Below are positions 9,091 through 64,000 of a stretch of DNA of 64,000 bases, piece after piece (the stretch's first letter is position 1; the number at the start of each line of letters is the position of its first letter). Location of the stretch: the NCBI RefSeq assembly GCF_009914755.1, contig NC_060928.1; one strand, given 5' to 3'. Both the position numbers and the translations under genes were made by a program. Below the pieces are notes generated by a model, which saw only the letters and a program-made list of their open reading frames with translations, did no database searches and had not been told where the DNA came from. The DNA comes from the human T2T-CHM13v2.0 reference genome, Homo sapiens.

Positions 9091-11147
9091 CCAATCACCT
9101 ACTACAAGACTCAGCTACTGAAAATACTTGCCTTTGTGGAGCTTTATTGATGTTGTCTATGCAAGCGTACTGACATGACCAAGCAAGTCACAGAGAAGTA
9201 CATAGAAATAATATTGGCAGCAGAGAAGTAGAAGCTACAAAAAAGAACAAGAAAGGAGAGGTAGAGAAAGTCTGAGACAAACATATTTACAAGTGTAGAT
9301 GTGTCACCAGAATAAGAATGAATATATGAATGAGTGTATGATGTGACTGTCTGCCACAAGCTCACATATTTTGGCTTGGGTCACTGGAATTTCTCATTCA
9401 ATATGAATACCTATAAGAGATTCTAAATTTCTTCATGAATCTGCTAAAGCCATTATTTATTTTTTTATTTTTAACTTCTCTATGTTTTACGATAAAATAT
9501 CTTCAATTGAATAACCAAAAGTTGGCCCTCTTCTTGTCAATTTGAAATAAAATTAAGTACAAATCTTAATATCCCAGAGTTGTGTCACCACCACTATACA
9601 CAAGGGGTTTTTAGTGACATAATCTAATTTGCAATTAATAAACTTTCAATTGAATTCAGCACCACATGAAATTGGCTTTGACACAAAAAATACATTATCC
9701 AATGATACTATTTTGGTATATTTATCAGAATTTAATTAATTTTCAATCAACCATGTACTACCAGGCCAGTTAAAATAGTAGACTCTTTTCTCCCATTTGA
9801 AAATTTACATACATTTTTATGACAACCAACATTAATGTTCTATGCGTCCATTCAAAAACTGTGACAATAATAATGAGTTAATACAAAATTACAGCTTTGA
9901 GTTAGAATTTAATGTGTGTCACAGGCTCTTAGAACAACTGTTTATTAAAACAGTGGATAGACCAGAAGCAATGTGATGTCACTGCAGTATGATTTCATAA
10001 TCCAGAATCTTCCACTTTAAATCTAATGACCACTTTGAAAAGAATTGGGTTGCATCACTCTGCTTACTTTATAAGCACAGTTTAACTAGAGCAGACTATA
10101 GGAAGTTGTTTCAGACTTACCAAGGTTTCTTTAGAAAAATCATTAGTTACAGATTCAATTTAAATAGAATTGAGTTATTGATCCAAAACAATTACAACCA
10201 GGAAATTAACCTTATACTGTAAAAGTTTAATAAGAGATTATGAATCTAGGTAAACAATGTCTTTTTAAAATTAATTTTTATTTTTAATTTTTGTGTAATA
10301 GGTGTAAATACTCATGTGGTACATTAAATATTTCAGTACAGGCATGCAATAAGTAACAAGCATATCAGATTAACTGGGTTATCCATTACCTCAGGTATGT
10401 ATCGTTTCTTTTCGTTACAAACATTCCAATTATATTCTTAGTTATTTTAAAATGTACAATAAATTATTGTTGACTATAGTCACCCTGTTTGACCTAGTGC
10501 TATCAAATGCTAGATCTTATTCAATCTTCCTAACTGTATATTTGTTATTCACCATCCCAACATTGTCCCCTCTCCCCCATTACCCTTCCTAGCCACTGGT
10601 AACCATCATTTTTATTCTCTGCCTCTGTGAGCTCAATTGTTTTAATTTTTAGCACCCACAAAATGAGTGAGAACATGCAAACTCTGTCTCTCTGTGCCTG
10701 GCTTACTTCACTTAAAATAATCTCCTCCCATTCCATCCATGTTGTTGCAAACAACAGTATCTCATTATTTTTATGGCGGAATAGTACCCCATTGTGTATA
10801 CGTGGCATATTTTCAATATTCACTTATCTGTTGAGGAACACTTAGGTTGCTTCCAGATCTTGGCTATTAAGAATAGCACTGCAATAAACATGGAAGTGCA
10901 GAAATGCCTTCAGTATACTGATTTCCTGTCATTTGGGCATATACCTCGCAGCAGGATTGCTGGATCATATGGTAGCTCTATTTTTGTTTTCTTCAGGAAC
11001 TTCCATACTGTTCCTCATATTGGCTGTACTAATTTACATTTCTGCCAGCAGTGTATGAAGGTTCCCTTTTCCCCACATCCTTGTCAGCATTTGTTATTGC
11101 CTATGTTTCGTATAAAAGCCATTTTAACTGAGGTGAGATAATATCTT

Positions 11148-12129
<982 letters not shown>

Positions 12130-14686
12130 TTATAGTAGTTTTGATTTGCATTTCTCCGATAGTCAATGATGATGAGCACCTTTTCATACACCTGTTTGCC
12201 ATTTGGATGTCCTCTTTTGATTAATGTCTATTCATATATTTTGCCCATTTTAAAATCAGATTATTAGATTTTTGTCCTAATGAGTTGAGTTCCACATATA
12301 TTCTGGTTATTAACCCCTTATCAAGTAGATAGTTTGCAAATACTTTCTCTCATTCTGTGGGTTGTCTCTTCACTCTGTTGATTGTTTCCTTTGCTGAGCA
12401 GAAGCTTTTTAACTTGACTGTATCCCATTTGTCTATTTTTGCTTTGGTTGCTTGTGCTTGTGGGGTATTACTCATGAAATCTTTGCCCAGATCAAGGTCC
12501 TTGGAAGTTTACCCAATATTTTCTTGTAGTAGTTTTAAATTTGGAGGTCTTATATTTAAGTTCTCAATTTATTTTGATTTGACTTTTATATATGGCAAGA
12601 GATACAGGTATAGTTTCATTCTATTGTACATGGGTATTGTTTTCTAATTACCATTTATTGACTGTCCTTTATCCATTGTATATTCTTGGCACATTTGTGG
12701 AAAATGAGTTCACTGTAGATGCATGGATTTTTTTCTGGTTTCATTATTCTATGCCATTAGTCTATGTGTCAGTTTTTCTGCCAGCACCATGCTGTTTTGG
12801 TTACTAAAGCTCTGTAGTATAATTTGAAGTCAGGTAATGCAATTCCTGCAGCTTTGTTTATTTTGCTTAGGATAGCTTTGGCTATTCTGGGTCTTTTGTG
12901 GTTTGGTATAAATTTTAGGATTATTTTTTCTATTTCTGTTAAGAATGTCATTGGTGCTTTAGTAGGGATTGCATTGAATCTGTCAATTGCTTTGGGTAAT
13001 ATGAACATTTTAACAATGTTCATTCTTCCAATCCATGATTATGGAATATTATTCAATTTTGGGGTGTCCTTTTCAGTTTATTATATCAAAATTTTATAGT
13101 TTTCCTTTTAGAAATGTTTCTCTTCTTGGATTAAGTTCATTGCTAGGTATTTTGTTTCGTTTGTAGCCATTAGAAATGAGTTTACTTTCTGGATTTTTCA
13201 TTATTTTGAATATTTTTCATATTCATTCTACTGTTGGCACGTAGAAATGCTACTGATATTGGTGCATTGATTTTGTATCCTGCAATTTTACGGAATTTCT
13301 TTATCAGTTCTAATAGGTTTTTGGTGGGGTATTAGGTTTTACCACGTATAAGATTATATCTTCTGCAAAAAAGGATAATTTGACTTTTTCCTTTCTAATT
13401 AGATACTCTTTATATATTTATCTTGTCTGATTGCCCTGGCTAGGACTTCCAATACTATGTTGAATAAAGGTAGTGACAGTGGGCATCCTTGTCTTCTTCC
13501 AGATCTTAGAGGAAAGTATTTCAGTTTTTGTCCATTCAGTACAGTACGAGCTTTGGGTCTTTCATATGTGGGTTTTATTGTGTTGAGGCATGTTGCTTCT
13601 ATACCCACTTCTTTGACGGATTTTTTATCTTTAAGGGATGTTGAATTTCATCAAATACTTTTTCAGCATGAATTGAAATGATGATGTAATTTTTTCCCTT
13701 CATTTTGTTGATATGATGAAGCATATTGATTAATTGCATATGTTGAATCATCCTTGCATCACTGGAATAAATCTCACTTGATCATGATGAATGATCTTTT
13801 TAATGCATCATTGACTTTGGTATGCTAGTATTTTGTTGAGGAATTTTGCATTCATATTCATCAGAGATATTGGCCTATTTTTTTATGTGCCTTGTCTGGT
13901 TTTGATATCAGGGTAACACTGGCCATAAATAATCTGTTTGAAAGTATTTCTTGTGTCTCTATTTTTTGGAACAGTTTGACTAAAATTGAATTAAACTTTC
14001 TTCAAATATTTGGTAAAATTTAACAATAAAGCCATTGGGTCCTTGGCTTGTCTTTGCTTAGAGAGTTTTTAATGTATCTTCAATCCCATTACTTGTTACT
14101 GGTCTATTCAGGTTATGGATTTCTTCATGGCTCAATCTTGGTAGGTTGTATATGTCTAGGAATTTGTCCATTTCTTCTAGATTTTCAAGTTCATTAGCTT
14201 GTAATTGCTCACAGTAGCCACTACTGATCCTTTAAATTTCCGGAGTATCAGCTGTAATGTCTCTTTTTTAAAATCTCTGAGCTTATTTATTTGGGTCTTT
14301 TCTCTTTTATTCTTAGTCTGGTTGAAAGCTTATCAATTTTGTTTAACTTCTCCAAATATTCACTTTGACTTCACTGATATTTTGTATTTTTTCCTTATTT
14401 CAATTTCACTTATTTCTGCCTTGATCTTTATTATTATTTTTCTTTCACTGGCTCTTGTTTACTTTTTTTCTGGCTCATGTTTGCTCTTGGTTTTCCAATT
14501 CTTTAAGATGCTTAATTAGGTGGTTTATTTTGTTTTTCTATGTTTTGATATAGGCACTTATAGCTGTAAAATTCCCTCTTAGTACCACTTTTGCTGCATC
14601 ACAATGGTTTTGGAATACTGTGTTTCCATTATCGATTGTTTAACAAATTTTTCAATTTCATTTTTATTTTCTTCATTTACCCACTA

Positions 14687-16479
<1,793 letters not shown>

Positions 16480-16966
16480 CAAAATTCCTCTTGTTATTCA
16501 TTTCTAGATTTATTTCCTTGTGGTCAGAGGAGATGCTTGATATTATTTCGATTTTTTTGAATGTTTCAAGACTTGTTTTGTGACCTAACATAAGGTCTAC
16601 CTTTGAGAATGATCCATGTGCTGGGCTGAGGGAAAGAATGTGTATGCTACACCTCTTGGATGAATTTTTCTGTAAATATCTATTAGGTACATTTTTTCTA
16701 CAATGCAGTTTAAGTTCCATGTTCCTTTGTTGATTTTCTGCCTGTAAGATCAGGATGTTGAAGTGTCCAATTATTATTGTATTGGGGCCTATGTATCTAT
16801 TTAGGTCTAAAAATATTTTTTATATATCTGGGTGCTCCAGTGTTGGGTTGATATGTATTTAAAATTGTTATATCATTTTGCTGAATTGACCCCTTTATCA
16901 TTACGTGATAATATTCTTTGTTTCTTCTTATAGTTTTTGCCTTGGAATCTATTTTGTCTGATATAA

Positions 16967-21384: not shown

Positions 21385-23815
21385 TTTTAATTTAAGACTT
21401 TAGTCCATGTACATTCAATGTTACTGTTGATAAGTAAGAACTTACTCCTACCATTTTGTTATTGTTTGTTTGTTTGTTTTGTGGTCTTCTCTTCCTTTTA
21501 TTCTTTCTTCCTGTCTTCCTTTGTGTGAAAGGAATTTTCTCTGGTGATACGCTTTACTTTCTTGCTTTCTGTTTCATTTGTGTTTCTGTTGTAGGTTATT
21601 TGATTTGAGGTTTCCACAAGGCTTGCAAATAATATTTTTTAACCCATTATTGTAAAGTGATGACAACATTGAGAGCAAGAACAAACAAGCAAACAAAGAC
21701 AAAGTTAGTAAAAACTCTTCACTATAACTTCAGCCACCCTGCATATAACTTTTTGTTGGTTTTATTTATGTCTTATACTGTCTATGTTTTGAAATGGTGT
21801 GGTTTTTATTTTTCATAGATTCATCTTTTAGTCTTTTTTATCAAGATATGAGTAATTTATGCACTGCAGTTACAGTGTTACAATATTTAGTGTTTGTCTG
21901 TGTACTTACTATTGTGAGATTTGTATTTTCAGATGTTTTCTTATTGCTCATTAACATATTTTTCTTTCAGAGCAAAAACCCCCTTTAGTATTTCTTATAG
22001 GACAGGTCTAATGTTGATGAAATTCCTTAGCTTTTGTTTTTCCAGAAAAGTCTTTATTTCTCATTCATATTTAAAGGATATTTTCACTGGATATACTATT
22101 CTAGGATAAAATTTTTATCCTTCAGCACTTTAAATATGTCATCCCACCTTCTCCTGGCCTGTAAAAGTTCTCTGCTGCCAGATGTTTTGGAGGTCCTTTG
22201 TATGTTACTTGCTTCTTTTCTCTTGCTTCTTTTAGAATCCCTTTTTTAAATTATTGACCTTTGGCAGTTCAATTATTAAATGTCTTCAGATAGTCTTAGT
22301 TGGTAAAATCTGCTTCATGTTCTACAACTTTCTTGTATTGAATATTGATATCTTTCTCTAGGTTTAGAAAGTTCTTCATTATTATCCCTTTGAAATAATT
22401 TTCCACCCTGATATCTCTCGCTGTAGCTCCTCTTTAAGGCCAGTAACTCTTAGATTTACCATTTTGAAGCTATTTTCTAGATCTTGTAGGCATATATCAT
22501 TTTTTTTTGTTCTTTTCTCTTTTGTCTTCTCTGATTGTGTATTTTCTAATAGCTTGTCTTCAAGCTCAATAATTTTTTCTTCTGTCTGGTTCATTCTGCT
22601 GCTGAGAGACTGTGATGTGTTCTTCAGTCTGTCAATTACATTTTTCTGCTTAATTTTTTAAAAATTACTTTAACCTCTTTGATATTCTTTGATAGAATTC
22701 TGAATTCCTTCTCATGTTATCTTTAATTTTGTTGTGCATTCTCAAAACTGCTTTTTTGAATTATCTGTATGAAACATTGCATATGCCTCTCCCTCTCCAG
22801 GATTGGTCCCTGGTGCCTTACTTAGTTCATTCAGTAAGGTCATTCTTCCCTGGGTGGTCTTGATGGTTGTGGATGTTCATTTATGTCTAGGCATTGAAGA
22901 ATTGGGTATTTCTTATAGTCTTCACATTCTGGGTTTATTTATATCTATCCTTCCTTGCAAAGTTTTCTGAGAATTCATAGGGAATTGAGTGTTGTGATCT
23001 AACTGTTTGGTCACTGCATCTTCATCTGCATTAGGGGACACCCCAAGGCTAATAATGCTGTAAATTGTACACAGTTACAGAGGTACTGCCTTGGTAGTCT
23101 TGGGTAACATCCAGGAGAATTCCCTGGATTACCAAGCAGAGGCTCTTGTTCCCTTCCTTTGCTTTCTTTCAAACAAATGGAGTCTCTTACTCTGTGTGCT
23201 GAGCTGCCTGGAGCTAGATTAGGGGTGACATAAGCACCCCTATGGCCATCACTACTGGAACTATGCTGGGTTAGACCCAAAGCCAGCACAGCACTGGGTC
23301 TTGCCCAAGGCCTGTCATGACCACTGCTTGGCTACCACCAATGTTCACTAAAGGCCCAGGGGCTTTTCAGTCAGGCAGTACTGAATCCAGCCATGCTTAT
23401 TCCCTTCCCTTCAGGGTGGTGAGCTCCCCGCAGCCAGTGAAGGGTCCAGAAATGCCATTCAAGGAACTGGGTCTGGTGTCAGGAATCTGAGCAATCTACT
23501 TCACTCTCTATTCTACTGCTGCTGAGCTGGCACCAAAACCACAAGGTAAAGTCCTTCTCCCTAATCCATCCCCTTTTCTTAAGCAGTAGAAATCTCTCCC
23601 CATGGTTAACATCATCCTAGGCTCATGTTGTGTACTGCCTGGCTATTGCTAATATTCACTCATAGCCCAAGAGATCTTCAATCAGCTTGGAGTTAATGCT
23701 TCCAGGCGTGGTCTCTCCCTTCAGGGCAGTGGGCCTCCTTATGGCCCAGAGCAGGTCCAGAAATGCCACTCAGGAACCAAGGCCTGAAATTGGGAAACTC
23801 AGGTGTCCACCTGGT
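21385..23815 (-). mobile_element. Second L1MA fragment (partial 5' UTR + ORF1 + inter-ORF)
   Basis: Co-linear diverged paralog of about 17430-20255; ORF1 peptide 22382-22594. Confidence 0.88.
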
Positions 23816-23851
23816 TTTGCTGGAGGGTTTTATTTGGCCACCTTGTTCCCC
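23813..23851 (-). pseudogene. Decayed collagen exon start, truncated by L1
   Basis: GGG GAA CAA GGT GGC CAA ATA AAA CC.. CCT CCA GCA AAA CCA reads GEQ GGQ xKP .PP (G)KP and abuts the L1MA fragment. Confidence 0.5.
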
Positions 23852-23988
23852 AATATGTCTTCTTTTAAATAAATATTTGAAAAGTCAATTGGCTATACAT
23901 GTGCTACTGACATAAAAATCTAATATTTATGAAAACTACTAGAACCGTGTGAAAAATAAAGTAGCACTAAGATCCAGGGCCTAGTTAC

Positions 23989-24023
23989 TTATCTTATTGA
24001 TGTGCTGGCTAAGGGCAATTCCT
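23989..24023 (-). pseudogene. Decayed collagen exon candidate (about 36 nt)
   Basis: tacag|AGG AAT TGC CCT TAG CCA GCA CAT CAA TAA GAT AA|gtaact reads (G)NC x*P (G)HQ xDK. Confidence 0.45.
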
Positions 24024-25303
24024 CTGTACAACTTAGAATTAACTGAGCTAATTCTCAGATGAATTTTCATGCTACTGCAAATGCACAAGTTATATTACTT
24101 CATTGAAAAATAATTGCAACTAATCATGTACAATTTCATATGTTGTCCCCCTGGAAACTGTAATAAATCCAAGATGGTTGATATGCTCTAGCTTAGTAAT
24201 GTAATTGAGTAATAAAGAAAAAGGTATAAAAAATTTAAGCTACCATGCTACTTTATTACTTATGCTGAAATACATGAAAGATCTGACAAATAATTCAAAA
24301 TAATATTTTAAAAGCTCAGTGAGCTACAAGAGACAACAGAAACACAGCTGAACAAAGTAAGGAAAGTAATACATGAACAATATGGAAGTTCAAAAAAGTA
24401 TAGAAATCATTTAGAGAAACAGAAATTCTGGAGCTGAAGAATACAAGGACTGAACTGACAGAGTCAAGAGAATTTCAACAGCAGATGAAGTCAAGCAGAA
24501 GAAAGAATCTGTGAAATCAAAGACATATCATTTGTAATTATGCAGTAAGAGGAACAGAAAGTATTACAAAGGATGAAGAAAGCCTATAGGAACTAATGAA
24601 CATCATCAAGCAAAATACAGTGTGCATTATTGCTGTTTCAGAAGGAACAGAGAAAGAGAAAGGAACAAAAGCTTATTTAAAAAATAATGACAAATACTTC
24701 TCATGTCTCAAAGAGAAATGAACATCCAGATACATAATGGCTAAAGAACCACAATAAGTGAACATCAAGAGATCTTCACTGAGAAACATTATAATTAAAT
24801 TGTCAAAAGTCAAATAATTAAAAAACAAAGTTAAAGAAAAAAAGAATTTTGAAAGCAGTAAGAAAAAGAAACTGATTTCATACAAGGGAATTATCATGAG
24901 ACTAATGGCAGATTTCTCAGCAAAATCTTTGCAGGTCAGAGAAAGTAGGTTGACGTATTCAAAGTGTCAAAACAAAGAAAAAATATCTGTCAACCAAAAA
25001 TACTTTAATTGGCAAAGCTGTCTTTCAGAAATGAAGGAGAGATAAAGAATTTTCTAGAAAAACAAAAGCTTAAGAAATTCACCACTAAACCTCTCCAACA
25101 AGGGAATTCCTAAAGTTAAAACAAAGTAATGGTAAATAGCAACATGAAAACGTGAAAGTACAAAACTTACTGATAAAGATAAGAATATAGCCAAATTCAG
25201 AATACACTTATAAATGGTGATACATAAATCACTATTAACATGGTATAAACATAAGAAGACAAATTATTAAAAAATATAGTTACAATAATTCATTAGTGAA
25301 TAT

Positions 25304-25661
25304 TGATATCATTTGGCTCTGTCCCCACACAAATCTCATGGTGAATTGTAATTCCCATTGTTGGAGGAAGGACCTGGTGGGAGGTGATTGACTCATGAGA
25401 ATGGACTTCCCCATTGCTGTTCTTGTGATGGAGTACTCATGAGATTTGGTTGTTTGATAAATGTGTGGCACCACCTCATTCTCTCTCTCTCTCCTGCCCC
25501 ATGTAAGACATGCCTTGCTTCCCCTTCACCTTCTACCTTGATTGTAAGTTTCCTGAGGCCTCCGCAGCCATGCAGAATTGTGAGTCAATTAAACCTCTTT
25601 TCTTTGTAAATTACCCAGTCACAGGTAGTTCTTTATAACAGTGTAAGAACAAACCAATACA
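25304..25661 (+). mobile_element. THE1D-like solo LTR
   Basis: tgatatcatttggctctgtcccc...aaaccaataca. Confidence 0.88.
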
Positions 25662-26039
25662 TATACACTTTCTAAAAATATATCAATAGTGACATTATTA
25701 ACATGTCAGTGAAGAGAGAATTTGTAAAGAGTAGTTTTTTGGTGTGTGATCAAAGATAAGTTGCGATCAGCTTAAAATGAAGTTTTATAGCTGTAAGATG
25801 TTTCATCTAAACTTCATGGTAATCAGATACAGAAAAGATAGAGAAAAAAGAAACAAAACATAACACTATAAAATTATTGAAACAAAAATGAGATGGCAAA
25901 AGAGAAAGAAACTAAAACAAGTCAGAAGAAAACAAATTGGCAACAATAAGCCCTTACCTATCAATAATCACTTTAAATATAAAGGCATTACATTCTGTAA
26001 CGAAAAGACGCAAAAAAACAATTTCCAACTCTATTCTAC

Positions 26040-26437
26040 TGCATTAGTCCATTCTCACACTGCTATAAAGAACCACCTGAGAGAGACTGGGTAGTTTATG
26101 AAGAAAAGAGGTTTAATTGACTCATAGTTCCACAGCCTGTACAGGAAGCATGGCTGAAAGGTCTATGGAAAATTGCAATGATGGCAGAAGGCAAAAGGGA
26201 AGCAAATGTATCTTACCATCCTGGAGCAGAAGAGAGCAAGATACGGGGAAATACTACACACTTTTAAACAATCTGATCTCATGAGAACTCTATCAAGAGA
26301 CAGCACTAGAGGGATGGTGTTAAACTATTAGAAACCACCCACATGATTCAATCACCTCCTACCAGGCCCCACCTCCAAAACTTGGAATCACAGTTCAATA
26401 TGAGGTTTTGGTGGGGACACACAGCGAAACCATATCA
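26040..26437 (-). mobile_element. MSTA-like solo LTR
   Basis: tgcattagtccattctcac...aaaccatatca; TSD tctac/gctac. Confidence 0.88.
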
Positions 26438-27705
26438 GCTACCTACAAGAAACTAATTTTAGCTTTAAAGATATACATAGGCTGAAAACAAAGATATGGA
26501 AAAAGATAATCCATGCAAATGGTAACTAGAAGAGAGCAAGGATGCCTATAATTATGTGAAAACAAATAGACTCCCTGTTAAAAACTATTGCAAGAGGCAA
26601 AGAAGGTCTTTCATAATAATAAGGGTGTCATCATCAAGAAGATGCATCAACTATAAGTATGTATTCACCCAACATCAGATCACCTAAATATGTAAAATAA
26701 ATATTGCAGAAGTGAAGGGAGAAATAAACAACAATATAATTGTAGTGGGGGACATCAACACCATCAGTACCCCACTTTCAATATTAATAAGTCATCTTGA
26801 AAGAAAGTCAATAAAGAAACAGAAGACTTGAACAAAACTCTGGAACAAAAGTATCTAATAGACATATACAGAACATTCCATCCAACAGCATAATATGCTT
26901 TCTTTTCAAGAGCACATGGAACACTCCAGAATAGACACTATGTTAGCCCAGTAAACCAGTCTTTAAAAGTTGAAGAAGATTGAAATTATGTCAGTTACAT
27001 TTTACTAATTACAATGGCATGAAACTAGAAATCAATAGCAAAAGGAGTAAATTTTATAACAATAAATGCTTACATTAGGACAAAGAAATAAAGAGCCCAA
27101 CTAACTACCTTTATACCATTTATTATTTCTTAATTTAACAATAAATGCTTATACTAAGAAAAAGAAATAAACAACCTAATTTTGTACCTCACGGAACTAG
27201 AAAAAGGAAAAACGAAGCCAAAAGTTAGCAGAGGGAGAAAACAATGATCAGAGTAGAAATAAATGAAAAAGAGACTAGAAAAACAATAGAACAAATCAAT
27301 AAAACTGAGTCAGTTTTTTGGGGAAAAAACAGAATCAATGAACTTTAAGCTAGACTAAGAAAAAGGAAGATTCAAATAAATAAAATTATAAATGACAAAA
27401 GAGACATCACAGCTGATAGCACTGAAATACAAAAGATTATGACTGACTACTGTAAATGATTATGCACCAACAAATTGGATATCTAGAAAATGGACAAATC
27501 CCTAGAAAGAGTAAACGTGCGAAGACTAAATAATAAAGATTTAGAAAATCTGAACAGACCAATAACAAGAGGTTGAATCAGTAATACAAACTTCCAAACA
27601 AAGAAAAACCTGGGACCAGATGGTGTCGCTGGTAAACAAAAAAGATTTAACAATTTTCTCAAACTTATCCACAAAATTGGAGAGGAGGAAACACTTCCAA
27701 AAATT

Positions 27706-27815
27706 GAAGAGGAGGGGAGGGGAGGGAAGAGGACAGAAGGAAGAAGGGGAGGGGAGGGAAGAGGACATAAGGAAGAAGGGGAGGGTAGGGAGGGAAGAGC
27801 AGGTGGGAGAAAGAA
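27706..27815. repeat. GA-rich polypurine low-complexity tract
   Basis: Repeated ggggagggagggaagaggaca units. Confidence 0.85.
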
Positions 27816-27829
27816 GGTGCTAATGGTAT

Positions 27830-28077
27830 CTGTGGGAAAGAGTGACATGACCAAGAGCAATGCCACTCGGATATAGGACAGGTGCTATCAATTTTCCTAA
27901 GTATATGGCTGAATCTTTCTGATAAATTGGGCTTCCTTTCTTTTACTCCCAGAGGACCTAGTATCCCTAGATCCCTCACAAGTCTTCTTGGCCTGGGGTC
28001 TCTCATTTTTCCTGGATGTCCCTTCAGCCCAGGCACTCTTTAACCACGTGAGCATGGCAGGGAGGTTCTGCAGACTC
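27830..28077 (-). pseudogene. Decayed collagen triple-helix exon (best preserved)
   Basis: After cctag: ESA EPP CHA .. [33 protein letters not shown] ERK. From RVP to ERK every first-of-triplet codon is GGN or one change from it (AGA, AGG, GAA). Part of ORF 27665..28036. Confidence 0.85.
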
Positions 28078-28499
28078 CTAGGTGATAAGTGTTACGTTAA
28101 CTGTGAAAATCATCTGTGTTCGTAATATATGGATAACTGGGAACATTGTTGTATTACATTTTCTTCCTAGACTGTTTAACTCAAGGGAGAAAAATGAACT
28201 TAATCTCAGGAAAAAAAATACACTTCTGAATGATTAAATTTATCAATTATGGTTTTAAGCTTTTCCTTTGTTTCTGAATTGGTAGCAAGAAGATCCATTG
28301 AAGTGTTGTGCTATTTAAAAAGACATCACTGCTCTTATTTAAAAGTAAGCAATACATTCAAGTCTCTATTAGAGACACTTTAATATAATAAATATTTTTC
28401 AACACACATGAACTTGTTTAAAAACTTGTTTAGAACTAAGATCCTTCATCATCAGCCAAAGAACATTTCTTTTAGGAATAGATTTTTCAGCATATGAAA

Positions 28500-28571
28500 G
28501 CTGTCCAAAATGTCAGGCAGCTATTTGAATCCAGGTCCATCTTGCAAACTTCCTCAAGGATGCTGTTCCCC
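28500..28571 (-). pseudogene. Decayed collagen exon candidate
   Basis: Reads GEQ -HP *GS LQ DGP GFK *LP DIL DS, with GGA/GAT/GAC/TGA at most Gly positions. Confidence 0.55.
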
Positions 28572-28814
28572 ACAGATGGTGCTCTTCACTTTAGTTTGTT
28601 TTCACTGTGCTTATTCATGAAATGACAGATGTTATTGAGAAAATGACTCCCTACTCTAATTACAAACAGCTTTATACACAGAGCAAAACATAAATAATAA
28701 AACCCTCTTGAGTTAATATCAGATATTAGGCAAATTAAACATATCCTTAGGTCATCAGCAAAACAGAAGAACCAAACATTTTACCAATTAGCTTATTAAG
28801 GTATTGTTTTATGT

Positions 28815-29060
28815 AATATAATTAATTGGCTTTAAGTGTACAACTTGATAAGTTTATAAAAATGTATACAGTCATATAGCCACCTCTACCATCATAATCC
28901 ATTTCTATCACTTCAGAAAATCTCCTCATGCTCTTGGCAGTAACGGCCCCCCCAAACACAAAAAGAATTGATAATGGATACATTATTTTAGTTACTTTAT
29001 AGAAATACCCAAGAGCTATCCATATTAATGCCTTGGATAAAACATTTTTCTTGTGATGTG
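28815..29060 (-). mobile_element. L1MC/ME 3' end fragment
   Basis: tttaagtgtacaacttgata...atgtatacagtcatatagccacc. Confidence 0.55.
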
Positions 29061-29400
29061 AAAATGAATCCAATATTCAAAAATCCATAAGAGATCTCCA
29101 GCTCATATCAGAATAGTTGGTATAACTCATTCACATTTAAGAAACTGGTTCATGAAAAGAAGCAGAGAAAATTTAGGATATTATTTTAAATTTCCTTGGT
29201 TATTTTAAACAAGAATTTTATGATTCTTTTTTCATTATTTTGATAACAGAGTCCTCAAAATAATGTGAAGTGGTTTCATCTAATTTCAAGTGTTTATTGC
29301 AATAATCTCAGGTCTGTGCCAGACTTTTGCCACTATGAGGCAGTATCATAGGCATTGCCATGACAGTAGAACAATTAAATTGCCACCAGAGGCATAAAGC

Positions 29401-29431
<31 letters not shown>

Positions 29432-29876
29432 AAGAAGAAAGAAAGAAAGTAATGAATTCTGAAATATCTATACTGTCTACCTCATAGCCAGTAATTGTAA
29501 TAATTTCTCAAGCTGGCTAAATTTTTCAGTTAAGAAAATTGTGATTCTTGAAGCTTTATCATAACATTACCTTTTGCCTCTTAAAATATATATTCCTTCC
29601 CATCTACTCTCCATTTATAATTCCAGTTGCAAAATGACAGGGATTTAGACTGATGTTGTTCAGTAGTTTTTATCAATAAGAAACTATTGCACTGAAAGTC
29701 TCAAATTCTGATAATTACTATTTCTACAAGTACCACAAAATATTTGTAATCAGGCAAGGTTGGAATGGGGGTTGTTACTGTATATTTATTATCTACATTG
29801 ATGAGTGATAGGAAGACAATGGTGTCCAAAACCTTCTCTATTTCTGTCCTTTAGAACTCAAAATCTAGAGAAGGGG

Positions 29877-30278
29877 GATTATGAGTTGAACAGTATTCCC
29901 CCAGAACCTCAGAATGTCCCCTTGGAAACTGGATGTTTGCAGATGCAGTTAGTTAAGATGGAGTCATACTGAATTAAGATGTGTTCTAAATCCAATGACT
30001 GGTATCCTTATAAGAAAGCCATGTGAAGGCACAAAGGGAAAAAGCCTATCTGATAATGAAGGCAATGACTGGAATGGTGCAGCTAAAAGCCAAGGAATGC
30101 CAAAGATTGCTGGCAACCACTAGAAGTTAGAAAAGCGGTATAGGATAAATTTTCCCTTAGACCTTTCAGAAGGAATCAACCCAGCCAACACCTACATTTC
30201 AGACTTCTGGTCTCCCAAACCGTGACAGAATAAATTTTGTTTGTTTTATGACACTGACAGCCCTAAGAAACTAATACA
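29877..30278 (+). mobile_element. MLT1B/C LTR inserted in an L2 fragment
   Basis: ccagaacctcagaatgt...aagccaaggaatgccaaagattgctggcaaccac...gaaactaataca. Confidence 0.8.
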
Positions 30279-30733
30279 GAGAAACAGATATTAATGAAAT
30301 ATTGATAAATACATGTAAAATTGCAACTATGAAAAAAGATTATTGATGAGAGCTTCAAAGTGTATTGATATCCAGATGAGTTGTACTAGTCACGGAGATC
30401 AGAGAACACCTTTTTGAGAAAGTGTTTTTTAAAGTGAGAACCAAAGAAGTTATCTATAGAAATATGAAGAGAATGAGGACTGCAGTCCAACTAGAAGTAA
30501 AATATGTTTTTTTTTAAAAATGCACTATTTCATGACTTAATAAATATGCATCCTCTATCTTACGTACTCTTACAGGATCTGAAGATTTAGAAATAAACAT
30601 GCAGTTTATACACTACGAAAAAAGGTATTGTGATCAAGCTATTAAAATACTGTTGTATTCTATTAATGAGGATAAATGAAAAAACTACACCTGTTATTGT
30701 TAAATATCTGTAGTCCCAATTATGTAGAAATAA

Positions 30734-31169
<436 letters not shown>

Positions 31170-32496
31170 AATAGTGATTTTCAGTAAACAGGATTTCCTT
31201 ATATTGCTTCTTATCACAATGACACATTCTTATCACAATGACTTTAAATAGTCAAAACAATTAAAAATAATGAAACTACAGACAAATTTTTTTTAATTCT
31301 CCAGCTGGCTCTAAAAATCATGTTATTTATTAAGGTGATATATTTTGCATATTAAAAACATATGAACATTGTTTGATTTATTGTCAATTTGGTATCTCAT
31401 TTTGCTTGAGCAAAACAGATAGTGCCACAGAATCTTTGTAAGTTTTCTTTTATCATTTAATTTATTTTGTAATAAAAATAATATAAACAAATAAGGTACT
31501 TAAATAATTACTCTAAAAATATAACAAATTAAGAAAACAAATAGCTATTTTATAATGAGGCAGAAATTTTACCCATTTTAACCAGATTAAGAAATTTCAG
31601 TTGAAGAATTTTCCTTTATGTAGTCGAGTTGTTTTGTTTCCAGCAAACTCTTTGCAGTAAAGAAAACCTTGGTAGTTCTTTCATGAATAAAAAGCATATG
31701 TGTACTTCATTTCAAATTGGCAGGGTCTCATGGTTTCCTTATAGATGTATAAGGTATAATTCAGTTTATAGAAGTAGTACAGTTAAAGTCTAAAGAAGGT
31801 CATTTTTTAATCTTTTTTTTTTGCATTCTTGCTTAGAAAATTACTAAGGAGACTCATTGGTAGTTTCTATGTCACCTGAGTGTACTCAATCCCTTGGGCT
31901 TGGGGGTATACTTATTGAAACTGAAATTTATGAATAAAGAAATTAAAAAAGGAATAAATCCAACTGTTATATGTCCTTCTAAACAACTCACAAAACATCA
32001 GTAAGACAAGCACACACTCCAAATAACTTAATATCACATATAGATAGGAAAAAAATTAATAACCAAAATTAACAGAATCAACTCCAGAGCCCACAGTGAG
32101 TAGAGAGTGGGGTGAAGACTTGGTGAAAGAAAGAAGAGAGGAAGTTCATAAGAATATAACCAATGAATCAGCCTCAGAAAGAGAAAGTCTTACCAGGAAT
32201 TGGGAAATAGAAAAAAATAGGATTAAAAATTGATAAACCAAAACACTGCCTTTGGGGAATCCAAAGGCAAGACTTGAACATGCACAAGGACAGATGTAGT
32301 GTGTTGTTTTGATTAAGAGCAGGTGACTTGGCTAGATAAGATACCCTTGGGTATGTAAATAAAAAGTAATTAAAAAGTTGAATTTGAGAGTCTTGATGAA
32401 GGAAAATTAAATCATAAAGTCAGAAGACATACAAAGTGCCTTTCCAACAAAATGCCCTTGAATAAAGAACAGCTACAACAAAAGCTAGTAAATGGC

Positions 32497-32985
32497 TGTC
32501 TTAGGTTGGGTTCATTCAAACACATGGCTGAAATAGGATTCCATGTACAAGAAAGGTATTAAATGAATAGGCTCTGGATAAACTGGAGGGAAAAAAAATT
32601 AGGAAAAAAGAAGAAAACAGGGAGGGAGGCAAAATAGGAAGGGAAGACCGATAAGCAAGCTTGTGGTTTCAGGGGAAGTTCAGATTCATTCTATCTTACA
32701 GGAGACCCTGTAGCACAAATTGAACCCTAGACTTTTCTGCACCTTCAAGCAGGGAGCTGGGTTCCTGTAGGTCTGCAGAGATAATCACAGAGTTGTCATA
32801 GGGAAACTTAAATTCCCAGGCATATCCAGGTGACGCAGTTTGAGTTGTCCAAGTGTCAACTTCTAGAGGAATGTGAAAGTGTGAAGCACTAGCAGCAATA
32901 GCCACAGCATTTAGGGAATGCCATATCTAATCAGCAAAAAGATCTTAGAATATCTGAGCAGGACACCAACAATGTTGCTGCAGCA
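32497..32985 (-). mobile_element. LTR16-like ERVL solo LTR
   Basis: tgtcttaggttgggttc...ggacaccaacaatgttgctgca. Confidence 0.6.
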
Positions 32986-33899
32986 ACTGACATCCCTTAT
33001 CATTCTCTACACAAAGCTTGTTGATGCACTTAAAATGAACAAAAAGTAGCAAACAGATAAAATAACAAGAAGGATCAAAATATTTTAACTGATGAAAATT
33101 ATCTCCACCCAACAACAACAAGCAAAAGGAAACTGTGACACAACTCTTCAATATAATTAACTATGTTTAATCAGACATTTATAGATTAAAAATTTTGAAT
33201 TCATGATCCAAAATATGATAACACAAGAGGTAAAAGTCATACAAAATGTGAAATGAAAGTTGATGTAACTCATTGAAGAAATGGAAGAAAAAGTTACCTT
33301 GGAAAGAAAAATGACAATATAAGATGTGAAGACAAAATAGGAGTTACTGAAAACATAATGAACATCATTTAAAAATACACATGAAAACATCTGTGAGAAC
33401 AAAATAAAATCACTAAAAAAGTAAAAGGAATCAGATAAAGCAAATGATGTAGATAACATTCTTAAAGATGGTTCTGTTACCTACATGTATGCATCACCAT
33501 AAATAAAATTTGAGCATTTTTTAAAAAGGAAAAATAATGGAGTAAACTAATATTTAAAACTTCAGTGAACAAAAACTTCCTGGAAATAAATGACACAGTT
33601 TACATATGATAAAAGCCCATTATGTACCTGGAACAAATGTCCTGAAACAGTGAACTCTGAGACAGAGCTTCATACAATTATTAGACTTTTTATATAAAGA
33701 AAAATATAGGCCAATAAACACATACAAGAAAACTTAGTGTTTCTCAGTTTTTCAATTATGCCTTTTGCAAGTAAACTATGAGCAAAAGATTTTAGGTCTT
33801 TAAGAACAAGCTATGTGGTTCTTAAAGTATCAAGCTTATAGGAGAACAATAGTAAATCTGTAAGTATTCAGAAAATACTGTACTCAAGAGGCATTTCCA

Positions 33900-34192
33900 G
33901 CCAGGCATGGTGGCTCAGCGGCTCACGCTTGTAATCCCAGCACTTTACGAAGCCAAGGTTAGAGGATCTCTTGAGCCCAGTAGTTCAAGACCAGCCTAGG
34001 CAACATGCAGAAACTTTTTTGAAAAAATTTAGCCAGGTGTGGTGATGAGTGCCTGTAGTCCTAGCTACTCAGGACACTGAGGTAGGAGGATAGCTTGAGC
34101 CCAGGAGGTTAAGGCTGTAGTGAGCCATGACTGTACCACTGTACTCCAGCCTTGACAACAGAGCAAGACCCTGTCTCCTAGGGAAAAAAAAA
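33900..34192 (+). mobile_element. AluJ
   Basis: cttgagcccagtagttc diagnostic; TSD aagaggcatt(t/c)cca at 33886-33899 and 34193-34206. Confidence 0.92.
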
Positions 34193-62460: not shown

Positions 62461-62698
62461 CAAATGATGCATTGATAAAAGTAAAATTCAGAGAGTTGGT
62501 ATGGATTATCCAATTTCAGAGCCAAGACAATTTTTGCATATTTTGGAGACTTTTATTTCCTGAAACTTTCTTTGGCTATATTCGGCTTTACCTACCATAG
62601 CAAGAACCTGAGAAAATGCACATTAAGCACATGAATATGACTTCAGCAGCCAGATATTGGGCAAAAGACAAGTATTGCCTTCACTTTGAAAGTCCCTA

Positions 62699-64000
<1,302 letters not shown>

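What the first reader, a model, noticed from the sequence alone, without database searches (positions are those of the whole stretch)
27830..28077. Strongest collagen relic: long run of 9-nt Gly periodicity hidden by G-to-A decay
Twelve consecutive triplets ([33 protein letters not shown] ERK) have GGN, AGA, AGG or GAA at every third codon. Restoring Gly gives [36 protein letters not shown], close to recalled COL27A1 GPPGLDGNPGELGLPGPP...GLIGDLGVLGPIG. Weaker triplets continue on both sides (ESA EPP CHA; ERF SHI, RKI DST CPI), so the segment is about 250 nt, long for one fibrillar exon (fused exons?).
Basis: partly seen in the sequence, partly recalled or inferred. Interest (0 to 1): 0.8.

Follow-up and report, generated by a model that had tools for sequence, protein, structure and literature searches.

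The report
Dead copy of one COL4A4 exon
The hidden collagen-like pattern is real: it is an old, broken, roughly 570-base copy of one exon of the basement-membrane collagen gene COL4A4 with its neighbouring intron DNA, sitting in a chromosome 4 gene desert, and it is an ordinary unannotated pseudogene fragment.

Summary
The 12-triplet run exists on the minus strand at window 27932-28039. It is far beyond chance: the next-longest run in the window is 5, and 0 of 100 whole-window and 0 of 20,000 local dinucleotide shuffles reach 12.

It is a true collagen relic, but of type IV collagen, not COL27A1. Window about 27793-28361 aligns at DNA level with one place on chromosome 2, C2:227524703-227525282 (nhmmer E 3e-48; blastn E 2e-89). 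That place holds a 108-nt Gly-X-Y exon with AG and GTAAGT splice sites. The gene's NC1 exon is identical to PDB collagen alpha-4(IV), so the parent is COL4A4.

The homology runs into both flanking introns, so the copy is unprocessed. The exon equivalent is window 27940-28047 (86 of 108 identical). It carries five Gly-to-Arg changes, all G-to-A at the first codon base, a TAA stop, a lost acceptor and a deleted donor. The twelfth triplet and the "weaker triplets" are intron-derived.

No other COL4A4 exon is in the window. It is an ancient neutral fragment, roughly 90 million years old by inference.

The parts
27940..28047 (-). Exon equivalent: copy of a 108-nt internal Gly-X-Y exon of COL4A4 (parent C2:227524860-227524967, minus strand)
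   Evidence: 86 of 108 bases identical with no indel, K2P 0.248. 6 of 11 whole Gly codons are kept and 5 are now Arg. Reciprocal best protein-level match in the whole genome.
27932..28039 (-). Triplets 1-11 are exon; triplet 12 (GAA AGG AAG) is the last exon base plus intron.
28040..28042 (-). In-frame TAA stop where the parent has CAC (His)
28048..28361 (-). Copy of the COL4A4 intron upstream (in gene sense) of the exon. The acceptor CAG is changed to CAC at 28048-28050.
   Evidence: Alignment; acceptor strings; HSP end at 28361.
27793..27939 (-). Copy of the COL4A4 intron downstream of the exon. An 8-nt deletion at the exon edge removes the donor GTAAGTCA.
   Evidence: left end read directly from the sequences
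27706..27799 (.). GA-rich 32-nt tandem repeat (about 2.5-2.7 copies) at the left junction. It overlaps the first bases of the copied block and a locally duplicated LINE-1 motif (27673-27688 / 27700-27715).
26432..27702 (+). Context: old LINE-1 ORF2 fragment that abuts the left junction
   Evidence: 60.8% identity over 1347 columns (E 9e-72) to a chromosome 2 repeat. An open frame of that repeat matches PDB LINE-1 ORF2 protein at E 1e-20. The window translation also reads as ORF2-like.

Best explanation
Window about 27793-28361 is a non-functional, unprocessed (intron-bearing) pseudogene fragment. It is a roughly 570-bp DNA-level copy of one internal 108-nt collagenous exon of COL4A4 (chromosome 2) with about 150 bp and 310 bp of its flanking introns, lodged in the chr4p13 gene desert next to an old LINE-1 fragment. 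The 9-nt Gly periodicity is inherited from a real Gly-X-Y exon and is partly erased by neutral decay. Shown: the homology, its extent, the parent gene and the disabling changes. Inferred: (a) it does nothing and evolves neutrally; (b) it is about 90 million years old, within a range of perhaps 60-130; (c) it arrived as a short templated 'patch' copied from the COL4A4 locus or its unspliced transcript during double-strand-break repair (class-2-type templated insertion), rather than by classical retroposition. I put about 0.95 on the identity and about 0.45 on this route of arrival.
For: nhmmer of window 27800-28130 against L003 (C2:227523352-227526456) gives E 3e-48 over query positions 7-330. 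blastn of the whole window against 200 kb of chromosome 2 gives 27807-28361 to C2:227524717-227525282 at 71.7% over 572 columns, E 2e-89. It is the only one of 826 HSPs that overlaps any of the 52 Gly-X-Y runs of the gene. The parent exon has ...CCTCAG|exon|GTAAGT, is 108 nt, reads G [35 protein letters not shown] G, and passes Pfam Collagen (30 bits against a cut-off of 27.2). Parent gene: C4/NC1 exons lie on the same strand 32-35 kb downstream, and one of them is 95 of 95 identical to the alpha-4(IV) part of PDB 6wku, with 5nb1 'Collagen alpha-4(IV)' the best single-chain match. Reciprocal best genome-wide protein matches. The exon part is less diverged (K2P 0.248) than the intron part (0.40), as expected if only the copy drifts freely in the exon while both copies drift in the intron. 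Disablements: acceptor AG>AC, donor deleted, TAA stop, 5 of 11 Gly lost. For the route: there is no poly(A) and no flanking direct repeat at the ends, and no further colinear homology within about 5-6 kb either side. The left junction shares a GAAGAG-type motif between the LINE-1 and the intron edge. These features fit the class-2 description in passages of PMC5110952.
Against: The route of arrival cannot be shown. After about 20% decay per branch, junction features such as target-site duplications, tails and microhomology may simply be erased. The GA-rich tandem repeat has overwritten the left junction. The DNA search of the whole genome is insensitive at this divergence: it missed the known chromosome 2/chromosome 4 pair in both directions, so further old copies elsewhere are not excluded. 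No repeat library (Dfam/RepeatMasker) and no other vertebrate genome was available. The age rests on a recalled neutral rate of about 2.2e-9 per site per year.
Confidence: 0.9

Rival explanations
1. It is the last recognisable remnant of a larger DNA-mediated segmental duplication of part of COL4A4, the rest having been deleted or overwritten by later repeat insertions.
For: The copy carries intron on both sides, as segmental duplicates do. The surroundings are full of later or older repeats: a LINE-1 at 26432-27702 and an Alu at about 30750-31150.
Against: There is no colinear homology outside 27793-28361 in window 22001-34000 against C2:227512001-227538000, even at word size 7 and E up to 10. 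No other of the 52 Gly-X-Y runs matches the window specifically: the other tblastn hits have E of 8e-4 or worse and fall on the same exon copy or on simple repeats. Only 1 of 826 HSPs touches an exon.
Confidence: 0.2
2. It was a LINE-1-mediated event: trans-mobilisation of an unspliced or antisense COL4A4-locus transcript (class-1 templated insertion), or template switching during insertion of the adjacent LINE-1.
For: A LINE-1 ORF2 fragment in + orientation ends at the left junction. In the parent, an A-rich (CAAA)n tract follows the right end of the block and could have primed reverse transcription. From recall only, window 28800-28960 resembles an old LINE-1 3' end, and an A-rich tract lies at 29400-29450.
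Against: There is no poly(A) at either end of the block and no flanking direct repeats. The right flank 28362-29460 has no repeat match in the window plus 200 kb of chromosome 2, so its LINE-1 identity is unverified. The template-switch version needs two switches.
Confidence: 0.2
3. One reading: a relic of a resident fibrillar (COL27A1-like) collagen gene that once lay here, with fused exons.
For: The Gly periodicity is real.
Against: The best and only specific match is COL4A4, including about 455 aligned intron columns at 70% identity. Anciently diverged collagen paralogues are not expected to keep that (established knowledge). None of the 6 genome matches of the window peptide is on chromosome 9. 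The parent exon has split Gly codons at both ends, which by recall is the type IV style, not the fibrillar style. No second exon is present.
Confidence: 0.01
4. It is a chance periodicity, or part of an interspersed repeat. My own early recalled guess was a MIR SINE.
For: Only a by-eye resemblance to a recalled consensus; no tool result supports it.
Against: Shuffles never reach the run. nhmmer of 27800-28130 finds no other copy in the window at E up to 10. There is a single hit in 200 kb of chromosome 2. The stretch is fully explained by a single-copy gene segment.
Confidence: 0.01

Closest known systems
COL4A4 (collagen alpha-4(IV) chain gene, chromosome 2), one internal 108-nt collagenous exon
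   Same: Colinear DNA homology over about 570 bp, with 86 of 108 exon bases identical and no indel. The Gly-X-Y register matches and 19 of 32 aligned residues are identical.
   Different: The copy has no acceptor, no donor, a stop codon and 5 of 11 Gly replaced. It stands alone without the gene's other exons. The exon number was not determined; it lies 32-35 kb upstream of the NC1 exons, with about ten Gly-X-Y/NC1 exon clusters downstream of it by my count.
Unprocessed (duplicated) pseudogene fragments of the human genome
   Same: Carries intron sequence, has no poly(A), has disabling mutations and diverges at a neutral-looking rate.
   Different: It is very short (one exon), interchromosomal and isolated in a gene desert. 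It is not in the RefSeq table supplied with the finding.
Templated sequence insertions, class 2 (Onozawa et al.; review PMC5110952, passages read)
   Same: A short patch templated from a distant locus, including intronic sequence. It has no target-site duplication and no poly(A), and there is possible microhomology at a junction.
   Different: Those described are recent polymorphisms with crisp junctions. This one is fixed in this assembly and old, its junctions are eroded, and an RNA intermediate cannot be tested here.
Pfam Collagen triple helix repeat (PF01391)
   Same: Derived from a sequence that passes the model: the parent exon scores 30 bits.
   Different: The copy itself gives no match at E up to 10.

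Membership tests
COL4A4-derived unprocessed pseudogene fragment | Significant DNA homology to the parent gene that extends beyond the exon into its introns | tested here: met
   E 3e-48 and E 2e-89. 455 aligned intron columns at 69.9% identity plus 108 exon columns at 79.6%.
COL4A4-derived unprocessed pseudogene fragment | The parent is COL4A4 rather than another collagen | tested here: met
   Same-strand NC1 exons lie downstream. 95 of 95 residues are identical to alpha-4(IV) in PDB 6wku, and 5nb1 is the best single-chain hit. Reciprocal best hits.
COL4A4-derived unprocessed pseudogene fragment | Disabling lesions (not a working exon) | tested here: met
   AG>AC acceptor, 8-nt donor deletion, TAA stop, 5 Gly>Arg.
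Processed (retro-) pseudogene | Intronless with joined exons, a 3' poly(A) and target-site duplications | tested here: not met
   Introns are present on both sides. There is a single exon only, and no poly(A) or flanking direct repeat.
Collagen triple helix repeat (PF01391) | Uninterrupted Gly-X-Y that passes the Pfam model | tested here: not met
   Window copy: 0 families at E up to 10, with 6 of 11 Gly kept. Positive control: the parent exon scores 30 bits.
None of the 6 matches is on chromosome 9. The parent exon has split Gly codons at both ends.
Interspersed repeat (for example MIR) | Many dispersed copies; match to a repeat consensus | tested here: inconclusive
   No other copy in the 64-kb window or in 200 kb of chromosome 2 beyond the one homolog. 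No repeat-consensus library was available, so a formal RepeatMasker test was not run.
Class-1 (LINE-1-mediated) templated insertion | Target-site duplication of at least 5 bp, a poly(A) tract and a cryptic poly(A) signal (PMC5110952) | tested here: not met
   None found. The age of the copy could hide them.
Class-2 templated insertion (break-repair patch) | No target-site duplication or poly(A), end-joining marks at the junctions, donor locus left intact | tested here: inconclusive
   The donor is intact and functional-looking and there is no duplication or poly(A). Junction detail is eroded and overwritten by a tandem repeat.

The most novel reading that the evidence does not exclude
The block is a fixed, roughly 90-million-year-old class-2 templated sequence insertion. 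In this reading a patch reverse-transcribed from unspliced COL4A4 pre-mRNA (or from an antisense transcript of that locus) sealed a germ-line double-strand break inside a LINE-1. That would be an ancient, datable example of a repair process so far described mainly as recent human polymorphism.
Probability: 0.25. Interest if true: 0.3.

Novelty: new member of a known kind. Interest (0 to 1): 0.2.

Why it matters
Biologically it matters little. It is one more neutral gene fragment in a gene desert, with no sign of function. Three modest points remain. (1) It is an unannotated COL4A4-like sequence, but at about 80% exon identity it is too diverged to disturb short-read variant calling for Alport-syndrome testing. 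(2) It gives a clean internal clock, with exon K2P 0.25 against intron K2P 0.40, for how a Gly-X-Y exon decays once selection is lifted. (3) It shows that a tool-less reading of codon periodicity can recover a true, heavily decayed exon that the Pfam Collagen model no longer detects.

Tried and rejected
1. MIR SINE idea. It rested on a by-eye match to a consensus recalled from memory, which was never typed into a tool. I rejected it because there are no other copies and the stretch is a single-copy homolog of COL4A4.

2. Whole-genome DNA search with the window block and with the chromosome 2 block. Each found only itself, so the tool is insensitive at about 72% identity. This is no evidence about further copies.

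3. Pfam on the 124-aa open frame and on the 36-aa run: no family. This was uninformative until the parent exon was run as a positive control.

4. The other long 'Gly-like' run, at 30748-30836 on the minus strand, is a GA-rich microsatellite at an Alu tail, not collagen.

5. PDB search with a 42-aa piece of the flanking LINE-1 gave only a noise hit to a gp41 construct at E 0.019. LINE-1 identity was established instead through the chromosome 2 homolog.

6. nhmmer of the right flank 28362-29460 found no repeat copies, so my recalled 'LINE-1 3' end' reading of 28800-28960 stays unverified.

7. Rfam on 27000-29500 gave only a sub-threshold snR10 hit (20.4 bits against a gathering score of 70). This is noise.

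8. Search for target-site duplications: none span the block.

9. Literature. 'COL4A4' with 'pseudogene' returned 109 papers. I saw the listing of 12, and the one passage read (PMC13171879) concerns PKD1 pseudogenes. 'COL4A4P' returned 1 paper, which is a table artefact 'COL4A4p = ...'. I found no printed description of this fragment in these searches, but the other 97 papers were not inspected.

Full report
**The observation**

Translating the reverse complement gives ...[44 protein letters not shown].... The 36 residues occupy window 27932-28039, with codons AGA, GGG, GGA, GGA, AGA, AGG, AGA, AGG, GGG, GGT, GGA and GAA at every third position.

The next best is 5.
- With a wider 'one G-to-A away from Gly' set the run is still 12. 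The runner-up is a run of 8 in GA-rich simple repeats at 27743-27814 and 30754-30825.
- In 100 dinucleotide-preserving shuffles of the whole window the maximum run was 3 to 7.
- In 20,000 local shuffles of 27830-28077 the maximum was 7. In 20,000 shuffles of the purine-rich 108 nt itself the maximum was 10.
- Tandem Repeats Finder reports no 9-nt array there.

**What it is**

I first suspected, from a recalled consensus, an old MIR SINE. That was wrong.

- nhmmer found no second copy in the window.
- A six-frame protein search of the window's own assembly with window:27830-28039:- gave, after self, one hit at C2:227524852-227524956 on the minus strand (E 0.011, 54% identity).
- At DNA level that place aligns with window 27800-28130 at E 3e-48 over query positions 7-330. 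This is far more than the Gly run, so it is not compositional.
- blastn of the whole 64-kb window against 200 kb of chromosome 2 (C2:227424001-227624000) gave 826 HSPs, nearly all Alu and LINE-1.
- Exactly one HSP overlaps any of the 52 Gly-X-Y runs of the resident gene: window 27807-28361 to C2:227524717-227525282, same orientation, 71.7% over 572 columns, E 2e-89.
- Reading the ends directly puts the left edge of the homology near 27793.

**The parent**

On the chromosome 2 minus strand the homolog holds a 108-nt exon...CCTCAG|GTGATCAC...ATAAAAG|GTAAGT. It reads G [35 protein letters not shown] G, with split Gly codons at both ends. It passes the Pfam Collagen model (E 4.3e-7, 30 bits, cut-off 27.2).

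A genome search with Pfam C4 (PF01413) finds type IV NC1 exons on the same strand at C2:227490031-227493130. Those of a head-to-head partner gene lie at 227790474-227793651 on the plus strand. The translated NC1 exon L039:1396-1686:- is 95 of 95 identical to the alpha-4(IV) segment of PDB 6wku. Its best single-chain match is 5nb1, 'Collagen alpha-4(IV) chain' (E 2.4e-72, against 4e-57 for alpha-2 and 7e-47 for alpha-3). The parent is therefore COL4A4.

The match is reciprocal. The COL4A4 exon's best non-self hit in the whole genome is the window copy (C4:43675941-43676036, which is window 27941-28036; E 0.0018). This ranks ahead of all true collagen exons, which score E 0.08 or worse.

**Anatomy of the copy**

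- The exon equivalent is window 27940-28047 on the minus strand: 108 nt, no indel, 86 of 108 identical (17 transitions, 5 transversions; K2P 0.248).
- The flanks are copies of the two introns: 455 aligned columns at 69.9% identity (86 transitions, 51 transversions, 23 gap columns; K2P 0.40).
- Of 11 whole Gly codons, 6 survive. Five are now Arg, each by G-to-A at the first base: GGG>AGA, GGA>AGA, GGG>AGG, GGC>AGA, GGG>AGG.
- Three Pro>Leu changes are C-to-T transitions.
- The copy is dead. The acceptor CAG is CAC, CAC (His) has become TAA at 28040-28042, and an 8-nt deletion removes the donor GTAAGTCA.
- That deletion places intron bases in register, which produces the twelfth 'triplet' ERK.
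- The 'weaker triplets' are intron. ESA EPP CHA lies upstream in a different frame; ERF SHI and RKI DST CPI lie downstream.
- There are no fused exons and no 250-nt coding segment.
- The Pfam Collagen model no longer sees the copy.

**Is more of the gene here?**

No, as far as tested.

- tblastn of all 52 Gly-X-Y runs against the window gives one specific hit, this exon (E 1.5e-9, 19 of 32 identical).
- The remaining hits have E of 8e-4 or worse. They fall on the same copy or on simple repeats.
- A word-size-7 blastn of window 22001-34000 against C2:227512001-227538000 shows no further colinear homology.
- The other Gly-like run, at 30748-30836, is an Alu-tail microsatellite.

**Surroundings and origin**

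- To the left lies an old LINE-1 ORF2 fragment on the plus strand, at 26432 to about 27702. It shows 60.8% identity over 1347 columns to a chromosome 2 element whose open frame matches PDB LINE-1 ORF2 protein at E 1e-20.
- Between that fragment and the block lies a 32-nt GA-rich tandem repeat (27706-27799) and a local duplication of the LINE-1 motif AAAATTGRAGAGGAGG.
- The intron edge in the parent reads GGAAGAGTAGGAAGA, similar to that motif. This suggests, but does not prove, a microhomology junction that was later expanded (inference).
- Neither end has a poly(A) tract, and no direct repeats flank the block.
- The right flank has no repeat match in 264 kb.
- Rfam finds nothing above threshold.

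These features fit the class-2 'templated sequence insertion' described in PMC5110952 better than the class-1, LINE-1-mediated kind. In class 2, a patch copied from a distant locus, possibly via RNA, seals a double-strand break and leaves no target-site duplication or poly(A) (passages read). Erosion makes this an inference, at about 0.45. A remnant of a larger duplication (about 0.2) and a LINE-1-mediated event (about 0.2) remain open.

**Age (inference)**

Exon divergence of 0.25 reflects essentially one freely drifting branch. Intron divergence of 0.40 reflects two branches. Together they give about 0.2 substitutions per site per branch. At a recalled rate of about 2.2e-9 per site per year that is roughly 90 million years, with wide error. 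It cannot be checked here because no other vertebrate genome is available.

**Known or new**

The RefSeq table supplied with the finding annotates nothing here.

- The search for 'COL4A4' with 'pseudogene' returned 109 papers. I saw a listing of 12 and read one passage, which concerns PKD1 pseudogenes.
- The search for 'COL4A4P' returned 1 paper, a table artefact.

Neither search turned up a description. Such gene-fragment copies are a common, well-understood class.

**Verdict**

It is a new but ordinary member of a known kind. Interest 0.2.

Noticed in passing
window 26432-27702 (+): Old LINE-1 ORF2 fragment running from the endonuclease region to about the middle of ORF2, with many stops. 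It is about 60% identical to LINE-1 copies in the COL4A4 region, and it ends at the junction with the COL4A4-derived block.
   Followed up: partly
window 27706-27799: GA-rich tandem repeat of period 32 (about 2.5 copies at 95% match), with an adjacent duplicated 16-nt LINE-1 motif at 27673-27688 and 27700-27715. It translates to Gly/Arg/Glu-rich strings that can mimic 'collagen-like' periodicity on the + strand.
   Followed up: partly
window 30748-30890 (-): Alu tail with (GGAA)n-like, (CAGA)n and (CAAG)n microsatellites. It gives the second-longest 'decayed Gly' run in the window (8 triplets) and is not collagen-derived. Any 'collagen relic' called there would be spurious.
   Followed up: yes
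window 11141-16483 and 62693-64000: Young LINE-1 sequence, 93-96% identical to copies inside COL4A4 introns on chromosome 2. This is ordinary primate LINE-1.
   Followed up: no
window 28800-28960 and 29400-29450 (+): From recall only, this stretch resembles the 3' end of an old LINE-1, followed 450 bp later by an (AAAAC)n/A-rich tract. No tool match supports it.
   Followed up: partly
L003 / C2:227524390-227524640 and 227525273-227525297: The parent COL4A4 introns carry a long (GGAA)n/(GAAA)n microsatellite next to an Alu just downstream of the copied block, and a (CAAA)n tract at its upstream edge. Both copies thus have GA-rich repeats on the same side. This is probably coincidence, since the parent's repeat sits at an Alu tail.
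   Followed up: no
window 28100-28247 (+): Sub-threshold Rfam hit to yeast snoRNA snR10 (20.4 bits against a gathering score of 70, E 0.12), inside the intron-derived part. Treated as noise.
   Followed up: no
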